This document shows, piece by piece, positions 39,558 through 50,229 of a stretch of DNA of 64,000 bases. The stretch lies in NCBI RefSeq assembly GCF_055900595.2, contig NZ_CM148325.1. One strand, 5' to 3'. How positions within the stretch are numbered: the first letter of the stretch is position 1; each line of letters begins with the position of its first letter. The notes under the pieces are model-generated. The model had not been told where the DNA came from. It worked only from the letters and a program-made list of their open reading frames with translations, and did not search any database. A program made the position numbers and the translations under genes.

Positions 39558-39720
39558 GATTCCTCCTTGCTGCCAGTCGCAACCATTTTTTATCAACCAG
39601 GCTAGCGGTATATCCGAGCAGTGTTGGTATTTCGGATGGCTTCAGCTCAGGCTTACGCTTACGACGATTTGATACTCTGTAGATGTGTCCGTTCATGACA
39701 CGAATAAGCGGTGTAGCCAT
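39550..39720 (-). CDS. ninE: NinE-like small basic protein (below ORF-track cutoff)
   Basis: 56-aa [59 protein letters not shown] read from the minus strand; start overlaps ybcN stop and stop overlaps ybcO start. Confidence 0.6.
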   Translation of the reverse strand: MATPLIRVMNGHIYRVSNRRKRKPELKPSEIPTLLGYTASLVDKKWLRLAARRNHG

Positions 39721-40175
39721 TACGCCTCCTGCTTGTCGCGGAGCAGCTGGAACTCGCAGCTCTGCGGAATAGTCAGGTGGCAGCCAATATTCATCGCCCA
39801 GGCTTCAACCTTACACAGGAAGACATACATCTCTCCGGTATCAAGATTGGAGGTATGGCGTAACGACTGGATAGTGGTGATATCACCGGTTACGACATCA
39901 ACCAGGTCTTTGGTTTCATAACCGAGATATGTGTGTTTGAGAGCATCTTTTACCCAAGCTGGAGTGGCGAACGTTTTACCCCTGCTGATGAGGTATTCAC
40001 TGATTTCGCTGTACCACATGTGGCTGAGTGCATTCTGGGAAAGACTGCGTTTCTCACGCCACGGTTTAAGCACCAGGCGAAAGCATTTGCCCTCCTCCAG
40101 ATAAGGCTGGATCTGCCGACCGATAGCGGTGAAGTTGCCGCGATGTAATTTGATGCCGTCTTGTGAGAGGTTCAC
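39720..40175 (-). CDS. ybcN: NinB/YbcN recombination protein
   Basis: 151-aa ORF matching remembered DLP12 YbcN / lambda NinB family. Confidence 0.8.
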
Positions 40176-40333: not shown

Positions 40334-40359
40334 GGCGGGTTGATTATTGAAAATCAAAG

Positions 40360-41037
40360 TTAATCGTACGAGTCGAGTATGTTCTGAAACGCCCAGCCAT
40401 CCTCCTTAGGAACACAAGACAGAATCGAATGAATTAGATCCCCTGCGGAAAGAAGTAACCCTTCTTGCCCTTCAAGAAAATAACGCCATTTAGGTCCATG
40501 AAACAGATTGTTCCGTAACCGGAAACAAACGAACAAGCACACTGCAAGCTGAGTCTCAGGCTCGGTTGTCATAGCTTGCATGGCTGAAAAACAGTCATCT
40601 CTCGCCTTTTGAGAGGTGTGGTGTAATTCCCCGCATAGGCTTTCAAACTTGCTTTTATCATTTACATAGCGTTCTGAAAAAAAATCGTATGTACACTTGA
40701 GAACCCCCAGATCCACAACCTCCATTTGCAAAAGACGATTGGCATATTTCGCACTTTTGCCTTGCCCCCCAGCGCAATTAAGAAGTAGAGACTCGAAGAA
40801 AGAGAAGTACAAAAAATAACGATTAACGGCGGTAAGGATAGATGGGGTAATCCTGCCTTCTGCATTAATCAACTCGTCAAATTCTGATGAAAAATCCAAC
40901 TGTTCATCCTTTTCCATTATATTCGGCCATTTATTGATATTGCACATCAGTCGCTCTTGGCAATGACAGGTTTGCTCTCGGTAATGTCTCAAACGCCCCA
41001 AAAAGTAGTCTCGCAAATGCTCTAGTTGCTCGCGCAT
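40360..41037 (-). CDS. Hypothetical protein with Rx4-6H (HEPN-like) motif; candidate abortive-infection cargo
   Basis: 225-aa ORF, no recognisable phage core function; contains RLRNNLFHG matching the HEPN Rx4-6H signature. Confidence 0.4.
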   Translation of the reverse strand: MREQLEHLRDYFLGRLRHYREQTCHCQERLMCNINKWPNIMEKDEQLDFSSEFDELINAEGRITPSILTAVNRYFLYFSFFESLLLNCAGGQGKSAKYANRLLQMEVVDLGVLKCTYDFFSERYVNDKSKFESLCGELHHTSQKARDDCFSAMQAMTTEPETQLAVCLFVCFRLRNNLFHGPKWRYFLEGQEGLLLSAGDLIHSILSCVPKEDGWAFQNILDSYD

Positions 41038-42917: not shown

Positions 42918-43265
42918 ATGACTATCAAAGCGACTGACATAGAGATTCTTCATCGTTATGCTGAAGGGGTAATGGAACGTTCTAACCATCATGCAAAAAA
43001 TGTTGGTGCAGCCGCTCTTACATTGCTAGGAGGTGTTATCTGGAAAGCCCTGCCCGGCTCAATCGAGATAAGAACGTATAACGGAAGTCTTGCAAATATG
43101 GTGTGGTGGCAAAGCGAAAGAACATTAAAAAATTATGCAATCTCATACAACCATAATTCATGTGAAATTGAAATGAGAGATGAATCAGTCAAAGGTGCTG
43201 TATTATTTAGCATTTCCAACGAAACCACTCCAGAAAAAATATTATCACAGCTTTCTGAGCTTTAA
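42918..43265 (+). CDS. Hypothetical protein, opposite strand to the surrounding early-right operon
   Basis: 115-aa ORF with AT-rich upstream region and a GGCGGTG-ctaa-CACCGCC hairpin right after its stop. Confidence 0.45.
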   Translation: MTIKATDIEILHRYAEGVMERSNHHAKNVGAAALTLLGGVIWKALPGSIEIRTYNGSLANMVWWQSERTLKNYAISYNHNSCEIEMRDESVKGAVLFSISNETTPEKILSQLSEL

Positions 43266-43469: not shown

Positions 43470-44171
43470 TCATACACTTGCTCCTTTCAGCCCAAACTTA
43501 GCTTTGATTTCTGCGATCTTCGCCAGAGCCTGTGCACGATTTAGAGGTCTACCGCCCATGACAGGAAGTTGTTTTACTGGTTCAGGTATCGCCTCACCAC
43601 GGTTAATTCGCGCGGTCATACAGGTCAGCTCATCGGCAGCTTTACGCCGTAATTCCGCGTCAGTCAGCGCATTGGCCCGCATGTTCTGGTACAGGTTGGT
43701 AACCAACCAGTAGTGCGCGTTTGATTTCCATGGATAAGACTCTGCGTCCGGATACAGGCCACGCTTCCGGCAATACTCGTAAACCATATCAACCAGCTCG
43801 CTAGCGTTTGGCAGCCCGGCGGTAACGGATGCTTCTTCCCGGCACCAGGCAACAAACTGCCCGGGTGATGGCAGGAATGGTCGATTCTGCCGACGGGCTA
43901 CGCGCATTCCAGCGTTAACCTGTTCCATCGTGGTGATCCCATTTTCCCGGAAAGCCAGAACCCACTGGCGGCGGATTTCGTTCAGTTCGTTCTGGTCACG
44001 GTTAGCCAGGCTCGCAGGGAAAGTTGCCAGTAACTGGCTGAACACACCGTTGATGATCTGCGCTACCTGCTGTACCTGCGGCTTTTCGTCGTACTGTTCC
44101 GGCATGTTGTTGGCGATCCGACGCATCTGCTCACGGTCAAAGTTAACCATCTGTGCGGCGATGTTTTTCAT
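43470..44171 (-). CDS. P: Replication protein P (DnaB helicase loader)
   Basis: 233-aa ORF essentially matching lambda P (MKNIAAQMVNFDREQMRRIANNMPEQYDEKPQVQQVAQIINGVFSQ...). Confidence 0.95.
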   Translation of the reverse strand: MKNIAAQMVNFDREQMRRIANNMPEQYDEKPQVQQVAQIINGVFSQLLATFPASLANRDQNELNEIRRQWVLAFRENGITTMEQVNAGMRVARRQNRPFLPSPGQFVAWCREEASVTAGLPNASELVDMVYEYCRKRGLYPDAESYPWKSNAHYWLVTNLYQNMRANALTDAELRRKAADELTCMTARINRGEAIPEPVKQLPVMGGRPLNRAQALAKIAEIKAKFGLKGASV

Positions 44172-45097
44172 AGATCAACCCCGTAAATCCAGTCTGTGTT
44201 TGTCAGGTCGAGTTTTGGTTTGCTGGCTGTCACGCCTGCCTGTTGCTTGTTACGGTTGATTTCGAGCTGGGTCCACTTGTCGCGGAGTTTGGCCGGACTT
44301 AGCACGTTACCGGACCAGAAGTTGTCCTGGCATGCCCAGCGGAACAGCACGCACATGTCGCGGTGGTTACGTCCGTCACGTTCACGCATCAGGCGGATAT
44401 CGTTAGCCCACCCTGCAAAATTCGGTTTTCTGGCTGATGGCGCGATGGTCTTCACCATGTCAAACATCCACTCTGCGGCGGTCAGGTCTTCTGCTGTCCC
44501 CCACTTGCTGCCGCTCTGAATCGCAGCATCCGGTTTCACCACAGGAAGGTCGTTTTCTGGCTGATCAGAGGATTCGCCAGAATTCTCGGACGAATAAGGT
44601 TTTATATTGTCTTTTGTTAGTTTGTCTTTTGTGTTTACCTGATTCGGGTAAACGCCTTTACCTGATTTGGGTAAACTTTTCTTACCTGATTCAGGTAAAT
44701 TTACCTCTTTCAGGTAAACTTTATTTTTCTTACCTGATTCGGGTAATGTTGACCATTCACTGACCACATTATTAATACCGATATTCCGCCCGCTCTGAAT
44801 CAAAATCCCACGCTTTACCAGAACACTTTTTGCAGCAGAACACTTGTGCGGTAATATCTCGGTCAATCCAGACAGTTGCTCGTTGCTCACCCAATCCAGT
44901 TTTTTATTAAAGCCATATGTTTTGCGCATGACAGCCAGGAAGACCAGAAGCTGGTGCTGTGTTAATCCGGCCAGCATCACAGCTTCCAGCAACTCATTTG
45001 CAATGCGCGTATAACCATCATCGAGATCTGCCACGCGCGGCTCCTTTTGTGCCGCATCCGGCACTGGAAAATTGAATATCTCAGCAGTGTTTGCCAT
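44168..45097 (-). CDS. O: Replication initiator O
   Basis: ORF 44168-45187; start placed at MANTAEIFNFPVP by analogy with lambda O; iterons lie inside the gene; C-terminus conserved with lambda O. Confidence 0.85.
   Translation of the reverse strand: MANTAEIFNFPVPDAAQKEPRVADLDDGYTRIANELLEAVMLAGLTQHQLLVFLAVMRKTYGFNKKLDWVSNEQLSGLTEILPHKCSAAKSVLVKRGILIQSGRNIGINNVVSEWSTLPESGKKNKVYLKEVNLPESGKKSLPKSGKGVYPNQVNTKDKLTKDNIKPYSSENSGESSDQPENDLPVVKPDAAIQSGSKWGTAEDLTAAEWMFDMVKTIAPSARKPNFAGWANDIRLMRERDGRNHRDMCVLFRWACQDNFWSGNVLSPAKLRDKWTQLEINRNKQQAGVTASKPKLDLTNTDWIYGVDL
44635..44747. repeat. ori-lambda-type iterons inside the O gene
   Basis: Five 18-bp repeats of TACCTGATTCGGGTAAAC type (44635, 44658, 44682, 44701, 44730) with an adjacent AT-rich run. 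Confidence 0.85.
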
Positions 45098-45183
45098 AAT
45101 TCCTCCCGCAATGAGTGTGTTACGATTTGCACCTGAAAGTCGGTTCTGTTCCAGCAGACCGGCTTTCGCCATTTCTGAACCTG

Positions 45184-45723
45184 TCATATCGCCCCCAGCA
45201 TGGTAGTAACCATCGCCATCAATGGACCAGCCAGATCTGGGTCCACACGAAACATCGATACAATACCTTCACTAATTTCCTTCAGTTTCTGGTGGCGTGG
45301 TGCGTTGAGAATGACAGCCTGTTTTGCCTCACTGAGTTCCTTTTCCATTTCAGCCAGCCGAGCTATGAAGCTATCCTGCTCAACCAGGTGGCCGCGATAT
45401 TCCAGCGGTAGTACCGCCAGAATTGCCGGGGTCAGTTCACGCACGTTATTTCGGTATTTTTCAGAATCGAATTTGTTATCGAGGAAGCGGAACAGCTTCT
45501 GGCGTGCACGGCTGACATCATCAGGGAAATCGATGGTGCCGCCGCCCTGCTCCCGATACTCATTCACAATGAGTGCGGCAACGACATCCTGATTATCTAC
45601 AGCCGACCAGGCGCGGACGGCATCACGGATTTTTTCGTGGCCTGGAGCTTGTTTTGTTTGAGAACGATTTATCACCGCAGTCGGGCTAAATCCGCTAGTC
45701 TGTTGGTATGTAAGTGGTTGCAT
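45184..45723 (-). CDS. YdaT/CII-position regulatory protein (function uncertain)
   Basis: 179-aa ORF located between the cro-like gene and O, the slot occupied by cII in lambda and ydaT in Rac. Confidence 0.45.
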   Translation of the reverse strand: MQPLTYQQTSGFSPTAVINRSQTKQAPGHEKIRDAVRAWSAVDNQDVVAALIVNEYREQGGGTIDFPDDVSRARQKLFRFLDNKFDSEKYRNNVRELTPAILAVLPLEYRGHLVEQDSFIARLAEMEKELSEAKQAVILNAPRHQKLKEISEGIVSMFRVDPDLAGPLMAMVTTMLGAI

Positions 45724-45792
45724 AATTGACTCCTTTAGTTTGAATTGACTGTTAAGTTGATTGCTTATTGTTAAAGAGCGTGAAATGGAAAT

Positions 45793-46023
45793 TTAAGCTG
45801 CGTTCTTTTCAGTGTGTGGAAACAACTTCGGAAGATCCGGGCGAATCTGGTATGCCTTCACTACTCCACCAGTAGCCGTAACAATGCTGCCGACATGTTC
45901 AGGGGATACCTTTGCTTTGTTGTGAAGCCACTTATAGACGGCCTGCTGTGAAACTTCGCAGGCAGCGCCTAGTTTCTTTTGTGAACCAACGATATTGATC
46001 GCTGTTTTGATGGCTGGGTTCAT
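45793..46023 (-). CDS. Cro/YdaS-like HTH regulator
   Basis: 76-aa ORF divergent from cI with HTH-like segment (LGAACEVSQQAVYKWL). Confidence 0.7.
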   Translation of the reverse strand: MNPAIKTAINIVGSQKKLGAACEVSQQAVYKWLHNKAKVSPEHVGSIVTATGGVVKAYQIRPDLPKLFPHTEKNAA

Positions 46024-46127
46024 AACAACCTCCGTGGTTAATTTGAATCAAGATTAAAACTATGGTTGTTTTTAGTCAACAACCATTTTCGTTTGATGAA
46101 ATAAAACCTTGGTTGTACATTTGGACT
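46024..46127. promoter_or_regulatory. Immunity-region divergent promoter/operator region (OR-like)
   Basis: Intergenic between cro-like and cI genes; inverted repeats built on GGTTGT/ACAACC (ATGGTTGTTTTTAGTCAACAACCAT, AACCTTGGTTGTACA). Confidence 0.55.
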
Positions 46128-46817
46128 ATGAAAACAACACTCTCAGAAAGACTTAAAGAAGCCAGATTAGCGCGAGGCCTTACACAAAAGGCGCTTGGGG
46201 ATTTGGTCGGGGTTAGCCAAGCAGCTATTCAGAAAATCGAAACAGGGAAAGCTAACCAAACAACTAAAATCGTGGAGATCGCGAACGCTTTGGGTGTGCG
46301 CGCAGAATGGTTATCTTCTGGCGTTGGAAATATGTCAGACAGTACAGTGCAACCAATACAAACAACTGTCAGCCATTCCAAATACTTTAAGATTGACGTT
46401 CTTGATATCGAAGTGAGTGCCGGGCCGGGAGTCATCAACCGTGAGTTTGTAGAAGTTCTACGTTCGGTTGAGTATTCGTTTGACGATGCTCGTCACATGT
46501 TCGATGGCAGGAAGGCGGAAAATATCCGTATCATTAACGTACGCGGTGACAGCATGTCAGGAACGATCGAACCAGGTGATCTGCTATTCGTTGATATCAC
46601 TGTTAAATCTTTCGACGGTGATGGTATCTATGCGTTTCTGTACGACGACACAGCCCATGTAAAGCGCCTGCAAATGATGAAGGATAAACTGCTGGTTATC
46701 TCTGATAACAAGAGCTACTCACCGTGGGACCCAATCGAGAAAGACGAGATGAACCGGGTATTCATCTTCGGGAAAGTCATCGGGAGCATGCCGCAGACGT
46801 ATAGGAAGCATGGATAA
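46128..46817 (+). CDS. cI: CI-type repressor (HTH plus S24 LexA-like autopeptidase domain)
   Basis: ORF 46062-46817; start at MKTTLSERLKEARLARGLTQKALGDLVGVSQAAIQKIE (HTH); C-terminal S24 motifs (RGDSMSGTI, KRL). Confidence 0.85.
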   Translation: MKTTLSERLKEARLARGLTQKALGDLVGVSQAAIQKIETGKANQTTKIVEIANALGVRAEWLSSGVGNMSDSTVQPIQTTVSHSKYFKIDVLDIEVSAGPGVINREFVEVLRSVEYSFDDARHMFDGRKAENIRIINVRGDSMSGTIEPGDLLFVDITVKSFDGDGIYAFLYDDTAHVKRLQMMKDKLLVISDNKSYSPWDPIEKDEMNRVFIFGKVIGSMPQTYRKHG

Positions 46818-46912
46818 TTCGACATAAATTCAACAAGTTAACTTTGGCTTCAAAAAAGCATCGATAACATTGCATTATATTTTTCCTTTTGTCTAACTTA
46901 AAAGGATGAACA

Positions 46913-47638
46913 ATGGAAGAACGTGGGAATTACCTAATAGACCCCCTAGAAGTAATTGGTTCTGGCGGTTTTGGCCTTGTAGAAAAAATAAGGTTATATA
47001 ACTCACAAAGAAAAATTTGTGGTCTATATGCCAGAAAAATTTTACGACCTGATGCAACAGATCCTGAACTCTTTACCAGATTTGAACGAGAAGTAAGATA
47101 TCAAACTGAATGCCTGCATACTAATATTGTCCAAATATTCATATGCCACTTACAGAATGCTCAGCCTTGGTTCGTAATGGAACTAGCAGAAACAAATCTT
47201 GAAGAAGAAATAAAAAGTGGAACTCTTACAAAGGCTGAAAAAATCTCTATTGTAAAAATGGTACTAAATGCCGTCGGATGGATTCATAAGAAAGGATATC
47301 TTCATCGGGATATAAAACCACTAAATGTACTAAAATTTAAAGATGGAATTTATAAGTTATCTGACTTCGGCCTTGCAAAAAATGTGTCACCAGATGCCAA
47401 TACACAGCTATTAACACAAATTGGCCAATACCCCGCTACTCCTAAATACTTTGATTACAACGTTTTCCTCAACGGATATTCAAAACAATCAGATATATAT
47501 TCAATTGGTATTTTAATTGAAGAATTAAATATTGATGGTTTTGATGATATAATAAACAAATGTACGCATAGACAACTTAACAAAAGATTCCTGACCGTAG
47601 AGCAGATCTTTGAGGAATTGGAGTTGAAACGCTTATGA
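46913..47638 (+). CDS. Eukaryotic-like (Hanks-type) Ser/Thr protein kinase, minimal 241-aa form
   Basis: Gly-rich loop GSGGFGLV, catalytic loop HRDIKPLN, DFG (SDFGLAK); very AT-rich; directly downstream of cI in the rexAB slot. Confidence 0.8.
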   Translation: MEERGNYLIDPLEVIGSGGFGLVEKIRLYNSQRKICGLYARKILRPDATDPELFTRFEREVRYQTECLHTNIVQIFICHLQNAQPWFVMELAETNLEEEIKSGTLTKAEKISIVKMVLNAVGWIHKKGYLHRDIKPLNVLKFKDGIYKLSDFGLAKNVSPDANTQLLTQIGQYPATPKYFDYNVFLNGYSKQSDIYSIGILIEELNIDGFDDIINKCTHRQLNKRFLTVEQIFEELELKRL

Positions 47639-48378
47639 TTAGCATACTCTCATCATCCATATTTTCTGTACCAAAACATAATGGCAGGGAAAATCAAGAT
47701 AGCGTGCTTTATCCACTTCAAACACCAAATGGTTATCTTATGGCTATAGCTGATGGGGTTGGTGGTTATAAAGGAGGAAAAGAAGCATCTGCAGCAGTAA
47801 TAAATCATTTGTATAGTATTAAAGACAGCTTCACTCATGAAGACAATGTCTTATCCTTACTTAAGACCCTACAAGAAAAGGTGGCATCTCTTTCGTCAGT
47901 TGATAAAGAATTAGCATCTGCTGCTACAACTTTAACAATGTGCCTACTTCACAATCAAGGTCTAACAATTATACATGTAGGTGACTGTCGTGTTTATTTA
48001 AAAAATGGAAATAAGCTAATCCAATTAACAACAGATCATACTCAACATCAAATGTTGATAGATAGCGGTATTTATACAGCTCGACAGCTCAAAAATGCAA
48101 AAGGTAAAAATATTATTACAACTGCACTTGCTGCCAAGATCCCCCTTCAACATCAAGTCATAAATATTGATAAAGATGAACTTCCTCTTGACGATGGTGT
48201 TCTATCTCTATTCATCATGTCTGATGGCGCGCATACCTTTTGGGAGCAACGCCCACGATTTTCTTACCGTACATTGTCAACCGCATCAAGGTTTGCCTCC
48301 AGCCTAATGCGAAGAATAGAGACAAAAGGCCCGACTGACGATTATTCTCTTATAGCGGTAAATGTAAAGTATTTGTAA
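47635..48378 (+). CDS. PP2C-family Ser/Thr protein phosphatase
   Basis: 247-aa ORF overlapping kinase stop by 4 nt (ATGA); motifs AIADGVGG, GDCRVY, TTDHT, SDG. Confidence 0.75.
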   Translation: MISILSSSIFSVPKHNGRENQDSVLYPLQTPNGYLMAIADGVGGYKGGKEASAAVINHLYSIKDSFTHEDNVLSLLKTLQEKVASLSSVDKELASAATTLTMCLLHNQGLTIIHVGDCRVYLKNGNKLIQLTTDHTQHQMLIDSGIYTARQLKNAKGKNIITTALAAKIPLQHQVINIDKDELPLDDGVLSLFIMSDGAHTFWEQRPRFSYRTLSTASRFASSLMRRIETKGPTDDYSLIAVNVKYL

Positions 48379-48382
48379 ACTT

Positions 48383-48410
48383 CCCGGCCACCGTGCCGGG
48401 TTTTCTTTTA
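48383..48410 (+). terminator. Intrinsic terminator after the cI-kinase-phosphatase unit
   Basis: CCCGGC-caccgt-GCCGGG hairpin followed by TTTTCTTTT, 5 nt after the phosphatase stop. Confidence 0.8.
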
Positions 48411-48774
48411 TCCCCTCCCCTCATCACGTATACCGTTCAAAAAACCACCACAATCTCCCTTCAGTTATCGCTATGCGATGCAAGTCACAAAATAAATCCA
48501 TCCTAAATACAACCAGTTACATCTAAAACAACCAATAAAACAACTTTTGTTGTTGACGATAAAACAACTATAGTTTTAAATAAATTCATCGCAACAACAC
48601 AACGATACGGCAACCACCTGATTCACCGTTGCGATGACCGCTTAGATCCGCAGCTTGAATTTCAGCAGGCTTCGGGGAGTGCGAGGGATGAAACGGACGC
48701 GTGAACGTCGGTGTGACCAGCTGAAATCAACTCAACATTTCATACCTTAGTCGCTTCAACGAGGCGGCTTAGTT

Positions 48775-49065
48775 ATGACAACCGGCGGCCATCCACCGCC
48801 TGAATACGCGCAGAAGTCTTTATATGTTCAGCAGCCCAGCTTACGGGCAGGAGTTTTTATGGTTCATCAACATTACGGAACGCAGACCGTTAATCGAGGT
48901 GCGGTCATGCCAGGAATGCTGGTCAAACACAAAGATGGTACCTGGACTGCATCAGCTAATTTACGCGGACGGCTTTATCTGCATCGCGGCATCGAGCGCA
49001 CTTATACCCGTGATTTGCTCGTGGAAGTTTTTCTCGACGGACGCGGTAACGGCCTGAATCACTAA
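48775..49065 (+). CDS. Hypothetical protein upstream of gam (kil/cIII position)
   Basis: 96-aa ORF in the early-left operon; no family recognised. Confidence 0.35.
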
Positions 49066-49141
49066 CCCCCCTTTCCTGTTTTCCTTATCAGCCTGGCATT
49101 TCGCGGGCGATATTTTCACAGCCATTTTCAGGAGTTCAGCC

Positions 49142-49438
49142 ATGAACGCTTATTACATTCAGGATCGTCTTGAGGCTCAGAGCTGGGCGCGTCACTACCA
49201 GCAGATCGCCCGTGAAGAGAAAGAGGCAGAACTGGCAGACGACATGGAAAAAGGCCTGCCCCAGCACCTGTTTGAATCGCTATGCATCGATCATTTGCAA
49301 CGCCACGGGGCCAGCAAAAAAGCCATTACCCGTGCGTTTGATGACGATGTTGAGTTTCAGGAGCGCATGGCAGAACACATCCGTTACATGGTTGAAACCA
49401 TTGCTCACCACCAGGTTGATATTGATTCAGAGGTATAA
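49142..49438 (+). CDS. gam: Gam RecBCD inhibitor (short form)
   Basis: 98-aa [63 protein letters not shown]... matching lambda GamS. Confidence 0.9.
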
Positions 49439-49443
49439 AACGG

Positions 49444-50229
49444 ATGAGTACAGCACTCGCAACGCTGGCTGGGAAGCTGGCTGAACGTGTCGGCATGGAT
49501 TCTGTCGACCCACAGGAACTGATCACCACTCTTCGCCAGACGGCATTTAAAGGTGATGCCAGCGATGCGCAGTTTATCGCATTGCTGATCGTTGCCAACC
49601 AGTACGGCCTTAATCCGTGGACGAAAGAAATTTACGCCTTCCCTGATAAGCAGAACGGCATCGTTCCTGTGGTGGGCGTTGATGGCTGGTCCCGCATCAT
49701 TAATGAAAACCAGCAGTTTGATGGCATGGACTTTGAGCAGGACAATGAATCATGTACATGCCGGATTTACCGCAAGGACCGTAATCATCCGATCTGCGTT
49801 ACCGAGTGGATGGATGAATGCCGCCGCGAACCATTCAAAACCCGCGAAGGCAGAGAAATCAAGGGACCGTGGCAGTCGCATCCCAAACGGATGTTAAGGC
49901 ATAAAGCTATGATTCAGTGTGCCCGTCTGGCCTTCGGATTTGCTGGTATCTATGACAAGGATGAAGCCGAGCGCATTGTCGAAAATACCGCATACACTGC
50001 AGAACGTCAGCCGGAACGCGACATCACTCCGGTTAACGATGAAACCATGCAGGAGATTAACACTCTGCTGATCGCCCTGGATAAAACATGGGATGACGAC
50101 TTATTGCCGCTCTGTTCCCAGATATTTCGCCGCGACATTCGCGCATCGTCAGAACTGACACAGGCCGAAGCAGTGAAAGCTCTTGGATTCCTGAAACAGA
50201 AAGCCACTGAGCAGAAGGTGGCAGCATGA
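49444..50229 (+). CDS. bet: Bet single-strand annealing recombinase
   Basis: 261-aa ORF matching lambda Bet. Confidence 0.9.

What the first reader, a model, noticed from the sequence alone, without database searches (positions are those of the whole stretch)
46024..46127. Shared GGTTGT/ACAACC inverted-repeat motifs on both sides of the immunity module
The cro-cI intergenic region contains ATGGTTGTTTTTAGTCAACAACCAT and AACCTTGGTTGTACA. Downstream of the kinase-phosphatase terminator, at about 48520-48580, the sequence AAAACAACCAATAAAACAACTTTTGTTGTTGACGATAAAACAAC repeats the same hexamer, including a perfect AACAAC-tttt-GTTGTT palindrome. These are candidate OR and OL operators for this particular CI-type repressor and would define the immunity specificity.
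Basis: seen in the sequence. Interest (0 to 1): 0.3.

Follow-up and report, generated by a model that had tools for sequence, protein, structure and literature searches.

The report
Repressor operator sites of a prophage
The repeated ACAAC/GTTGT motifs are very probably the DNA sites where this lambda-like prophage's CI repressor and Cro bind to switch its early promoters on and off; this is a textbook arrangement in an immunity type that appears not to have been described.

Summary
The quoted sequences are present as described: 46062-46086, 46106-46120 and 48525-48568. The motif is not enriched over the 64 kb as a whole. However, the cro-cI gap and the pL region are the two densest clusters of it in the window.

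The operator unit needs correcting. It is a 14-bp, phage-434-like site, ACAAC-N4-GTT(G/T)T.
- OR has three sites: OR1 46056-46069, OR2 46079-46092, OR3 46103-46116, with centres 23 and 24 bp apart.
- pL has two sites: OL2 48540-48553 and OL1 48564-48577, with centres 24 bp apart.

The main evidence:
- Exact pattern matches occur only at OR and OL in the 64 kb.
- Half-site columns are almost invariant across 160+ related loci, while site centres and spacers vary.
- Heteroimmune relatives replace only two segments, cro-OR-CI helix-turn-helix and a ~96-bp pL cassette. A Klebsiella phage shares only the cro-OR-cI stretch and that cassette.
- HK639 has a Pro for Ala in the recognition helix and uses ATAAC-N4-GTTAT.

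No binding experiment exists. I rate this a new member of a known kind, of low interest.

The parts
46056..46069 (-). OR1: ACAACCATAGTTTT, read on the minus strand. It lies in the pR -35/-10 spacer and overlaps the -10 by 1 bp.
   Evidence: Zero-mismatch match to ACAACNNNNGTTKT. 19 nt around it are 95% identical to the OL1 region (I2). Half-sites are invariant across loci while the centre is polymorphic.
46079..46092 (+). OR2: ACAACCATTTTCGT, with one good half and one weak half. It overlaps the pR -35 by 1 bp, abuts the pRM -35, and its centre is at -42.5 from the cI ATG.
   Evidence: Identical in the E. coli and Klebsiella lineages; ACAACTATATTCGT in the Providencia phage. Its centre is 23 bp from OR1 and 24 bp from OR3.
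46103..46116 (-). OR3: ACAACCAAGGTTTT, read on the minus strand. It lies inside the pRM spacer and overlaps the pRM -10 by 1 bp.
   Evidence: Zero-mismatch match. Half-sites are invariant while the centre varies (CTTG, CATG, CACG) across lineages.
46025..46038 (+). Possible fourth site ('site 0'): ACAACCTCCGTGGT. It lies in the pR-transcribed leader, over the cro Shine-Dalgarno sequence.
   Evidence: One-mismatch match. It is kept as a 9/10 match, with different mismatches, in the Klebsiella phage (ACAACCTCCGTAGT) and the Providencia phage (AAAACCTCCGTTGT). Its conservation may instead reflect the ribosome-binding site. Uncertain.
46051..46079 (-). Inferred pR: -35 TTGACT (46079..46074), 17-bp spacer, -10 TAATCT (46056..46051), start near 46044.
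   Evidence: Read from the sequence. The layout is homologous to pL. The -10 is kept as TATTCT in Klebsiella and TATTAT in Providencia. The simple consensus scan did not call it. Inferred.
46093..46121 (+). Inferred pRM: -35 TTGATG (46093-46098), 17-bp spacer, -10 TACATT (46116-46121). The start would fall on the A of the cI ATG at 46128, giving a leaderless cI mRNA.
   Evidence: Sequence. TA[C/A]ATT and TTG are kept across lineages, and no Shine-Dalgarno sequence precedes the ATG. A leaderless repressor gene has been shown experimentally in the related prophage CP-933P (PMC8630535). Inferred here.
46128..46817 (+). cI repressor, 229 aa: N-terminal 434-like helix-turn-helix (recognition helix S30-Q-A-A-I-Q-K36) and C-terminal S24 autocleavage domain.
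   Evidence: Pfam HTH_3 and Peptidase_S24. The best solved relatives are the 434 repressor DNA-binding domain (E = 4.5e-9) and 434 Cro. The start matches the cI annotated in PhiR47_2.
45793..46023 (-). cro, YdaS family, 76 aa. Its recognition helix VSQQAVYKW resembles that of CI.
   Evidence: Pfam YdaS_toxin and P22_Cro. The Cro and CI helices co-vary across immunity types. YdaS acts as Cro in CP-933P (PMC8630535).
48540..48553 (+). It overlaps the pL -35 by 1 bp.
   Evidence: The only exact ACAA-N6-TTGT match in the 64 kb. Half-sites are invariant and the centre is polymorphic. The Klebsiella equivalent is ACAACTATTGTTGT.
48564..48577 (+). OL1: ACAACTATAGTTTT. It lies in the pL spacer and overlaps the -10 by 1 bp. 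Its centre is 24 bp from OL2.
   Evidence: (D9, I2). The Klebsiella equivalent is ACAACTATGGTTTT.
48553..48582 (+). Inferred pL: -35 TTGACG (48553-48558), 18-bp spacer, -10 TAAATA (48577-48582), start near 48589-48590.
   Evidence: Sequence. It is homologous to pR on the opposite strand (I1 and I2). The predicted start coincides with the right end of the immunity-specific cassette. Inferred.
48509..48522 (+). Conserved ACAACCA half-site starting 31 bp upstream of the start of OL2. It may be a weak OL3, but it has no recognisable second half.
   Evidence: It is kept at the same 31-bp offset in the diverged Klebsiella-type pL, while the surrounding sequence differs. The second ACAACC at 48528 is polymorphic and absent in the Klebsiella type.
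45725..46260 (.). Immunity-specific segment A: cro, OR and CI residues 1-44, which include the helix-turn-helix.
   Evidence: Homology to the heteroimmune 4A7-type phages (96-97% up to 45724) breaks here and resumes at 46261.
48494..48589 (.). Immunity-specific segment B: the pL/OL cassette.
   Evidence: 4A7-type phages share both flanks but replace this stretch with a cassette carrying their own OR motif, AATAGCAATnnGTATT. In the 44000-49600 stretch compared, the Klebsiella phage L089 matches only 45827-46817 and 48489-48600.
48383..48408 (+). Intrinsic terminator ending the cI-kinase-phosphatase operon.
   Evidence: Six G-C pair stem followed by TTTTCTTTT. Conserved downstream of every cargo variant.

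Best explanation
These are the OR and OL operators of a lambdoid genetic switch.

Inferred binding: dimers of CI bind 14-bp pseudo-palindromes ACAAC-N4-GTT(G/T)T. CI has a phage-434-type helix-turn-helix with recognition helix SQAAIQK. Cro, a YdaS-family protein with helix SQQAVYK, would bind the same sites.

At OR, three sites have centres 23 and 24 bp apart, the spacing I recall for lambda (not checked here).
- OR1 fills the pR spacer up to the -10.
- OR2 overlaps the pR -35. Its centre is 42.5 bp upstream of the leaderless cI start, so CI there would both block pR and activate pRM.
- OR3 lies inside pRM. It would give negative autoregulation by CI and be the site through which Cro shuts off cI.

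At pL, OL1 and OL2 occupy the same positions relative to the -10 and -35. A conserved ACAACCA half-site sits upstream.

Immunity specificity resides in two co-inherited segments: cro-OR-CI residues 1-44 (45725-46260) and the 96-bp pL cassette (48494-48589).

Shown by computation: motif positions, conservation, covariation and homology to the 434 repressor. Inferred: binding, promoter positions, activation, and the order in which sites are occupied.
For: 1. Exact ACAACNNNNGTTKT matches occur only at 46056, 46103, 48540 and 48564 in 64 kb.
2. pR and pL are near-identical in layout on opposite strands (I1 and I2).
3. Conservation in 84 OR and 78 OL loci of the same immunity: polymorphic columns are 1/50 in half-sites, 6/20 in site centres and 41/130 elsewhere (Fisher P = 4.7e-6).
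4. Conservation in a wider set chosen only by the protein helix SQAAIQKIETG (167 loci, 16 distinct DNA-binding domains; 36 of the 48 distinct OR sequences could be laid in register and were scored): 1/30 against 6/12 and 31/62 (P = 2.7e-6).
5. Reciprocal mosaicism. 4A7-type phages share everything except segments A and B. They carry their own shared OR/OL motif. Within the 5.6 kb compared, the Klebsiella phage ST101-KPC2phi6.1 shares only cro-OR-cI (45827-46817) and segment B. It keeps all five sites at the same spacing, with altered centres and spacers.
6. Providencia phage PSTCR7lys has a DNA-binding domain 52% identical but the same recognition helix, and it keeps the same sites.
7. HK639 CI differs in the helix by Ala to Pro (SQPAIQK). 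It has six ATAAC-N4-GTTAT sites, three at OR and three at pL, against 0.12 expected.
8. The CI domain is homologous to the 434 repressor (E = 4.5e-9), whose operator is ACAA-N6-TTGT (operator sequence from my own knowledge).
9. No locus pairs this CI with a foreign pL cassette, although the cI-stop-to-pL distance takes many different values from 300 to 1935 bp.
10. In the related prophage CP-933P, the repressor and YdaS footprint on the equivalent intergenic region, the repressor gene is leaderless, and PL shares its -35 and -10 with PR (PMC8630535).
Against: No binding or expression data exist for this repressor.

The consensus promoter scan did not call pR, pRM or pL, because their -10 hexamers are weak.

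OR2 has a poor second half (TTCGT). The model therefore relies on cooperativity, which is assumed.

The related loci share ancestry, so the column tests are not fully independent.

OL sites in the wider set were located with a motif-based pattern, so their invariance there is partly circular. The OR set was anchored on protein and does not have this problem.

An extended 16-19 bp site cannot be excluded.
Confidence: 0.8

Rival explanations
1. The operator units are the inverted repeats the reader highlighted. These are GGTTGT-N9-ACAACC (the 25-bp repeat at 46062-46086) and its pL counterpart. The repressor would bind half-sites that point away from each other.
For: The 25-bp repeat is real, with 8-bp arms. 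It scores as a hairpin above shuffles (z = -1.8 on the plus strand and -3.0 on the minus strand). It spans the pR -35.
Against: The pL counterpart (GTTGT-N10-ACAAC) has a different spacer length.

In the Klebsiella lineage the left arm is TTAGTTGT, so only the 5-bp cores survive.

The GGTTGT at 46111 has no partner at that spacing.

434-type dimers read ACAA inward from each end (from my own knowledge). The 14-bp model gives this orientation; this rival does not.

HK639 shows three regularly spaced 14-bp palindromes with no such outer repeat.
Confidence: 0.07
2. The shared motifs only reflect common ancestry of two duplicated promoters, pR and pL, and have no role as protein-binding sites.
For: pR and pL are alignable over about 30 bp (I1 and I2).
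Against: Ancestry alone would not keep half-site columns invariant while centres and spacers vary. It would not explain OR3, which lies on a different promoter. It would not explain replacement of the motif together with the CI and Cro helices in heteroimmune relatives, which keep the TTGA -35 core at a corresponding position.
Confidence: 0.04
3. The sites are bound by another factor, not CI or Cro. Candidates are the CII-like YdaT protein or a host protein.
For: YdaT is a DNA-binding protein encoded next to cro.
Against: The published YdaT site, TTGATT-N6-AATCAA (PMC9986795), is not matched at OR or OL better than 2 mismatches.

ydaT is 96-97% identical between the two immunity types, whereas the motifs differ.

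The motifs track the CI and Cro recognition helices instead.
Confidence: 0.03

Closest known systems
Phage lambda OR (OR1-OR3) and OL operators with PR, PRM and PL
   Same: Divergent cI and cro. Three operators with centres 23-24 bp apart over two back-to-back promoters (lambda's spacing is from my own knowledge). OR2 centred near -42 of a leaderless cI. Homologous operators at pL. An accessory operon between cI and pL in the rexAB position. CI with an S24 autocleavage domain.
   Different: Sites are 14 bp (ACAAC-N4-GTTKT), not 17 bp. The CI DNA-binding domain is 434-type, not lambda-type. Cro is YdaS-family. The CII position is held by YdaT. There is no N gene. Only two clear OL sites are present.
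Phage 434 repressor and Cro, with 14-bp operators ACAA-N6-TTGT
   Same: The CI N-terminal domain aligns with the 434 repressor over 64 residues (E = 4.5e-9). Gln17 and Gln28 equivalents are conserved (Q20, Q31). Operators are 14 bp with ACAA outer bases. OL2 is an exact ACAA-N6-TTGT match.
   Different: 434 Gln29, Ser30 and Gln33 are Ala, Ala and Lys here. Position 5 is fixed as C. Most sites have AAAAC as their second half. No nucleotide similarity to 434 was seen among phage records. This is therefore a different immunity specificity, not imm434.
CP-933P prophage switch in E. coli O157:H7 (PaaR2 repressor, YdaS, YdaT; PMC8630535, PMC9986795)
   Same: The same cro (YdaS) and cII-like (YdaT) families. 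Leaderless repressor gene. PL with promoter elements like those of PR. Four repeats reported in its OR, which parallels the possible fourth site here. Accessory genes next to the repressor gene.
   Different: The repressor and the operator consensus (GTTTAGTAA, 18-bp palindromes) differ. PaaR2 is not the S24-type CI found here.
Phage HK639 immunity region
   Same: CI is 47-48% identical over the N-terminal ~90 residues, with recognition helix SQPAIQK. It has the same 14-bp 5-N4-5 architecture, with three sites at OR and three at pL spaced 21-25 bp. Cro is in the same family.
   Different: The half-site is ATAAC instead of ACAAC. This goes with Pro instead of Ala at the position equivalent to 434 Gln29. 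HK639 has a clear OL3 and an annotated putL-like antiterminator RNA, which the window lacks.

Membership tests
Lambdoid CI/Cro bistable switch (OR/OL operators) | Divergently transcribed repressor and cro genes separated by a roughly 100-bp regulatory gap | tested here: met
   cro at 46023..45793 (minus strand) and cI at 46128-46817 (plus strand), with a 104-bp gap.
Lambdoid CI/Cro bistable switch (OR/OL operators) | Repressor with an N-terminal helix-turn-helix and a C-terminal LexA/S24-type autocleavage domain | tested here: met
   Pfam HTH_3 (E = 5.5e-13) and Peptidase_S24 (E = 1.2e-18). An Ala-Gly pair (VSAGPG), Ser (GDSMSG) and Lys (HVKRL) are visible in the translation.
Lambdoid CI/Cro bistable switch (OR/OL operators) | Three partly symmetric, regularly spaced operators overlapping two back-to-back promoters | tested here: met
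   Sites at 46056, 46079 and 46103 with centres 23 and 24 bp apart. They overlap inferred pR and pRM hexamers that are conserved across lineages. The promoters themselves are inferred.
Lambdoid CI/Cro bistable switch (OR/OL operators) | Operators of the same sequence family at a second early promoter (pL) beyond the repressor operon | tested here: met
   OL2 at 48540 and OL1 at 48564, on a promoter laid out like pR.
Lambdoid CI/Cro bistable switch (OR/OL operators) | Operator sequence co-varies with the repressor's DNA-binding domain (immunity specificity) | tested here: met
   4A7-type, Klebsiella, Providencia and HK639 comparisons.
Lambdoid CI/Cro bistable switch (OR/OL operators) | Repressor and Cro physically bind the sites and control pR, pRM and pL | not testable with these tools
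   Requires gel-shift, footprinting or reporter assays. None were found in the literature for this immunity type.
Phage 434-type repressor/operator system | DNA-binding domain homologous to the 434 repressor and Cro | tested here: met
   phmmer against PDB: 1per (434 repressor) E = 4.5e-9; 434 Cro E = 2.7e-7.
Phage 434-type repressor/operator system | 14-bp operators with ACAA ... TTGT outer bases | tested here: met
   OL2 matches exactly and OR1, OR2, OR3 and OL1 each have one mismatch. The same 14-bp frame appears in HK639.
Phage 434-type repressor/operator system | The 434 recognition residues (Gln28, Gln29, Gln33), and therefore imm434 specificity | tested here: not met
   Only the Gln28 equivalent is kept. 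Gln29 is Ala and Gln33 is Lys. This works like 434 but does not belong to the 434 immunity group.

The most novel reading that the evidence does not exclude
This CI/Cro clade may follow a simple, readable recognition code. The residue after the invariant Gln of the recognition helix, equivalent to 434 Gln29, would set base 2 of the half-site: Ala or Gln gives ACAAC, and Pro gives ATAAC. CI and Cro carry almost the same helix within each phage.

In addition, the ACAAC group may have a fourth operator lying over the cro ribosome-binding site in the transcribed leader.

If both hold, immunity groups could be predicted from sequence, and re-engineered, for a prophage family found in about 28% of complete E. 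coli genomes.
Probability: 0.3. Interest if true: 0.4.

Novelty: new member of a known kind. Interest (0 to 1): 0.25.

Why it matters
The cro-cI module of this immunity type is present, at 80% coverage or more, in 1518 of 5426 complete E. coli genomes. Relatives occur in Klebsiella and Providencia phages. Yet I found no description of its operators in the searchable literature.

Defining the sites has several uses:
- It allows sequence-based prediction of which prophages are homoimmune.
- It explains why accessory cargo in the rexAB position is swapped freely while cI and the pL cassette stay linked. Here the cargo is a PD-T4-6-like kinase plus a PP2C phosphatase.
- It gives precise targets for reporter constructs and for induction studies.

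Conceptually it adds nothing beyond the lambda and 434 paradigm.

Tried and rejected
1. Whole-window enrichment of GGTTGT is absent. Only the clustering is significant.

2. The 25-bp inverted repeat as a terminator or RNA element. The consensus scan flags it. However, it lies upstream of both the pR and pRM starts, it folds weakly (-9 to -11 kcal/mol), and its arms are not conserved in Klebsiella.

3. A full OL3. No 14-bp site lies 20-25 bp upstream of OL2. Only a conserved ACAACCA half-site, starting 31 bp upstream of the start of OL2, is present. The ACAACC at 48528 is polymorphic.

4. A YdaT (CII-like) site at OR or OL: not present.

5. Rfam families in 45000-49500: none. A putL-like RNA after pL: no similarity to the HK639 element, and the leader folds no better than shuffles (z = -0.24).

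6. Literature searches for the operator strings, the recognition-helix peptides and the related phage names gave nothing relevant.

7. The Yersinia YP3 and Aeromonas AsXd-1 repressors (helix SQGAIQK) gave no clear 14-bp palindromes in the cro-cI gap. They could not be added to the code table.

Full report
**Context**

The window around 43.4-51 kb is the early region of a lambdoid prophage of E. coli. The cro-cI module's best match is 99.9% identical in E. coli strain T2. At 80% coverage or more, the cro-cI module is present in 1518 of 5426 complete genomes.

On the minus strand lie:
- cro (46023..45793; Pfam YdaS_toxin and P22_Cro);
- a YdaT-family gene in the cII position (45723..45184);
- replication genes O and P.

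On the plus strand lie:
- cI (46128-46817; HTH_3 plus Peptidase_S24);
- a protein kinase (46913-47638);
- a PP2C phosphatase (47635-48378);
- an intrinsic terminator (48383-48408);
- a non-coding stretch, followed by kil, gam, bet and exo.

**Observation**

Every quoted string is present.
- The 25-bp inverted repeat is at 46062-46086.
- AACCTTGGTTGTACA is at 46106-46120.
- The long pL string is at 48525-48568, with a perfect 16-bp palindrome at 48539-48554.

The exact hexamer occurs four times in the 104-bp gap but only twice near pL. The other pL copies share only the pentamer ACAAC/GTTGT.

Over 64 kb the hexamer is at chance level (32 copies against 30.1 expected). The gap and the pL cassette are nevertheless the two densest 104-bp windows of the whole sequence, for both the hexamer and the pentamer. 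Poisson P values range from 3e-7 to 1e-3.

**What the unit is**

Read on the strand of each promoter, pR and pL are almost superimposable:
- pR: GTTGTTGAC-TAAAAACAACCATAGTTTTAAT
- pL: GTTGTTGACGATAAAACAACTATAGTTTTAAAT

(I1 and I2.)

The recurring element is a 14-bp pseudo-palindrome, ACAAC-N4-GTT(G/T)T.

| Site | Coordinates | Sequence |
|---|---|---|
| OR1 | 46056-46069 | ACAACCATAGTTTT (minus strand) |
| OR2 | 46079-46092 | ACAACCATTTTCGT (weak second half) |
| OR3 | 46103-46116 | ACAACCAAGGTTTT (minus strand) |
| OL2 | 48540-48553 | ACAACTTTTGTTGT |
| OL1 | 48564-48577 | ACAACTATAGTTTT |

Centres are 23 and 24 bp apart at OR and 24 bp apart at OL. As I recall, not checked here, that is lambda's operator spacing.

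The pattern ACAACNNNNGTTKT has exactly four perfect matches in 64 kb, and all are these sites. With one mismatch allowed it has 22 matches against 9.2 +/- 3.5 expected.

One is the GTTGT half of OR1. The other is the ACAAC half of OR2, which faces away from it. The arms extend to 8 bp because both sites happen to begin ACAACCAT.

**Promoters (inferred)**

- pR: TTGACT (46079..46074), 17-bp spacer, TAATCT (46056..46051), on the minus strand.
- pRM: TTGATG (46093-46098), 17-bp spacer, TACATT (46116-46121). This places the start on the A of the cI ATG at 46128, giving a leaderless mRNA as in lambda.
- pL: TTGACG (48553-48558), 18-bp spacer, TAAATA (48577-48582).

The -10 hexamers are weak and the simple scan did not call them. 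They are, however, conserved in position across diverged lineages:
- pR: TAATCT, TATTCT, TATTAT;
- pRM: TA[C/A]ATT

.

With these assignments:
- O1 fills each spacer and touches the -10;
- O2 overlaps each -35 by one base;
- OR2 is centred at -42.5 of pRM;
- OR3 lies inside pRM.

**Conservation test**

80 IMG/VR loci with an essentially identical CI were combined with five of the six phage records of the same immunity (Turner was not fetched) and the window itself. This gave 84 OR and 78 OL sequences.

| Column class | Polymorphic columns |
|---|---|
| Half-sites | 1 of 50 |
| Site centres | 6 of 20 |
| Other non-coding columns | 41 of 130 |

Fisher P = 4.7e-6.

A wider set was gathered with the Klebsiella DNA-binding domain and selected only by the protein helix SQAAIQKIETG. 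It comprised 167 loci with 16 distinct domains and 48 distinct OR sequences. The 36 that could be laid in register without gaps were scored. It gave 1/30 against 6/12 and 31/62 (P = 2.7e-6). Counting only polymorphisms seen in three or more haplotypes gave 0/30 against 27/74.

The sequences are related, so these are column-level contrasts and not independent events.

**Covariation test**

Heteroimmune relatives (4A7, PhiR70_1, PhiR30_1) are 96-97% identical up to 45724. Homology is then lost across 45725-46260, which holds cro, OR and CI residues 1-44, and resumes at 46261. These phages share both flanks of pL.

Inside pL, about 96 bp (48494-48589) is replaced by a cassette whose motif, AATAGCAATnnGTATT, is the one in their own OR.

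The reverse holds for Klebsiella phage ST101-KPC2phi6.1. Within the 5.6 kb compared (44000-49600), it matches only 45827-46817 (73%) and 48489-48600 (80%). Its CI domain is 60% identical and has the same recognition helix. All five sites sit at the same spacing, with different centres and spacers.

Providencia phage PSTCR7lys has a domain 52% identical and the same helix, and it also keeps the sites.

HK639 CI differs in the helix only by Ala to Pro (SQPAIQK). It has six ATAAC-N4-GTTAT sites, three at OR and three at pL, against 0.12 expected.

Cro helices co-vary in parallel:

| Immunity type | CI helix | Cro helix |
|---|---|---|
| This window (ACAAC) | SQAAIQK | SQQAVYK |
| HK639 (ATAAC) | SQPAIQK | SQPAVHK |
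| 4A7 type | AQPTIWR | AQPTVWR |

No locus combines this CI with a foreign pL cassette, although the distance from the cI stop to pL takes many different values between 300 and 1935 bp. Of the 14 loci with no OL found:
- 10 have under 1.2 kb of sequence after cI;
- two more (L139, L145) have 1.6-1.85 kb and probably end before pL, which I did not confirm;
- two carry deletions through pL

.

**Relation to known systems**

The CI domain's best solved relatives are the 434 repressor (E = 4.5e-9) and 434 Cro.
- Equivalents of 434 Gln17 and Gln28 are kept (Q20, Q31).
- Gln29 is Ala and Gln33 is Lys.
- OL2 is an exact ACAA-N6-TTGT site, the 434 operator form as I recall it. The other four sites have one mismatch each.

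So this repressor works like 434 but belongs to a different immunity group.

The overall layout is lambda's. The closest experimentally studied relative is the CP-933P switch. There, the repressor PaaR2 and YdaS footprint the equivalent gap, the repressor gene is leaderless, and PL shares promoter elements with PR. Four repeats were reported in that gap (PMC8630535). The operator sequence and the repressor are different there.

I found no description of the ACAAC operators or of this repressor in the searchable literature. GenBank records of the six phages annotate only cI and cro.

**Uncertain parts**

Two candidate extra sites remain unresolved.

1. Site 0 (46025-46038, ACAACCTCCGTGGT) lies in the pR leader, over the cro Shine-Dalgarno sequence. 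It is kept as a 9/10 match with different mismatches in three lineages. Its centre is fixed by the ribosome-binding site, so the conservation may not reflect operator function.

2. An ACAACCA half-site at 48509 is conserved at the same offset in the Klebsiella type (31 bp between its start and the start of OL2). It has no second half.

The ACAACC at 48528 is polymorphic and is probably not functional.

**Verdict**

The interpretation as OR and OL operators that define immunity is well supported by position, conservation and covariation. The operator unit is refined to five 14-bp, 434-like sites.

This is an uncharacterised immunity specificity of a textbook kind of switch. It has practical value for classifying a very common E. 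coli prophage family, but it is not conceptually new.

Noticed in passing
window 46913-48378 (+): The accessory operon in the rexAB position encodes a Ser/Thr/Tyr-type kinase and a PP2C phosphatase. The kinase's best defence-library hits are mad6, PD-T4-6 and Stk2. Phages of the same immunity carry other cargo at this spot (GevT/GevA, HipA-like pair, lipoprotein, or nothing). The cI-stop-to-pL distance ranges from 300 to 1935 bp. This marks a hotspot for defence or toxin cargo expressed with cI.
   Followed up: partly
window 45768-45802 (-) and 48590-48775 (+): There is no N-like gene between pL and kil. A near-perfect rrn-type boxA (CGCTCTTTAACAA) lies 13 nt after the cro stop, on the minus strand at 45780..45768. 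A 15-nt string, CGCAGCTT[A/G]AATTTC, is shared by the pR transcript (45802..45788) and the pL transcript (48649-48663) (I4). The pL leader is conserved across immunity types. It has no Rfam hit, no similarity to the HK639 putL-like RNA, and no unusual fold. How early antitermination works here is unexplained.
   Followed up: partly
window 40340-40357: A perfect copy of the published YdaT (CII-equivalent) binding palindrome, TTGATTATTGAAAATCAA, lies in the nin region. It sits between an ORF at 40360-41037 (minus strand) and a NinB-like ORF at 39720-40175 (minus strand). This is the only exact match in 64 kb. It may mark a YdaT-controlled promoter.
   Followed up: partly
window 45793-46023 (-) and 46128-46260 (+); L005, L089, L090, L172: Within each immunity type the CI and Cro recognition helices are almost the same peptide: SQAAIQK/SQQAVYK, SQPAIQK/SQPAVHK and AQPTIWR/AQPTVWR. 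They change together between types.
   Followed up: partly
L053 and L118 (IMG/VR prophage loci): Two related prophages have lost pL. L053 lacks 24 bp (OL2 plus the -35), apparently through recombination between the ATAAAACAACT direct repeats. L118 has a deletion running from OL2 through pL. Several other loci carry single substitutions in the pR -35. These look like decaying prophages.
   Followed up: no
window 42918-43265 (+): An ORF on the opposite strand, between the P-like replication gene and a Bro-N/P22 antirepressor-like gene, matches the integron cassette protein family VCH_CASS14 (E = 5.7e-20).
   Followed up: no
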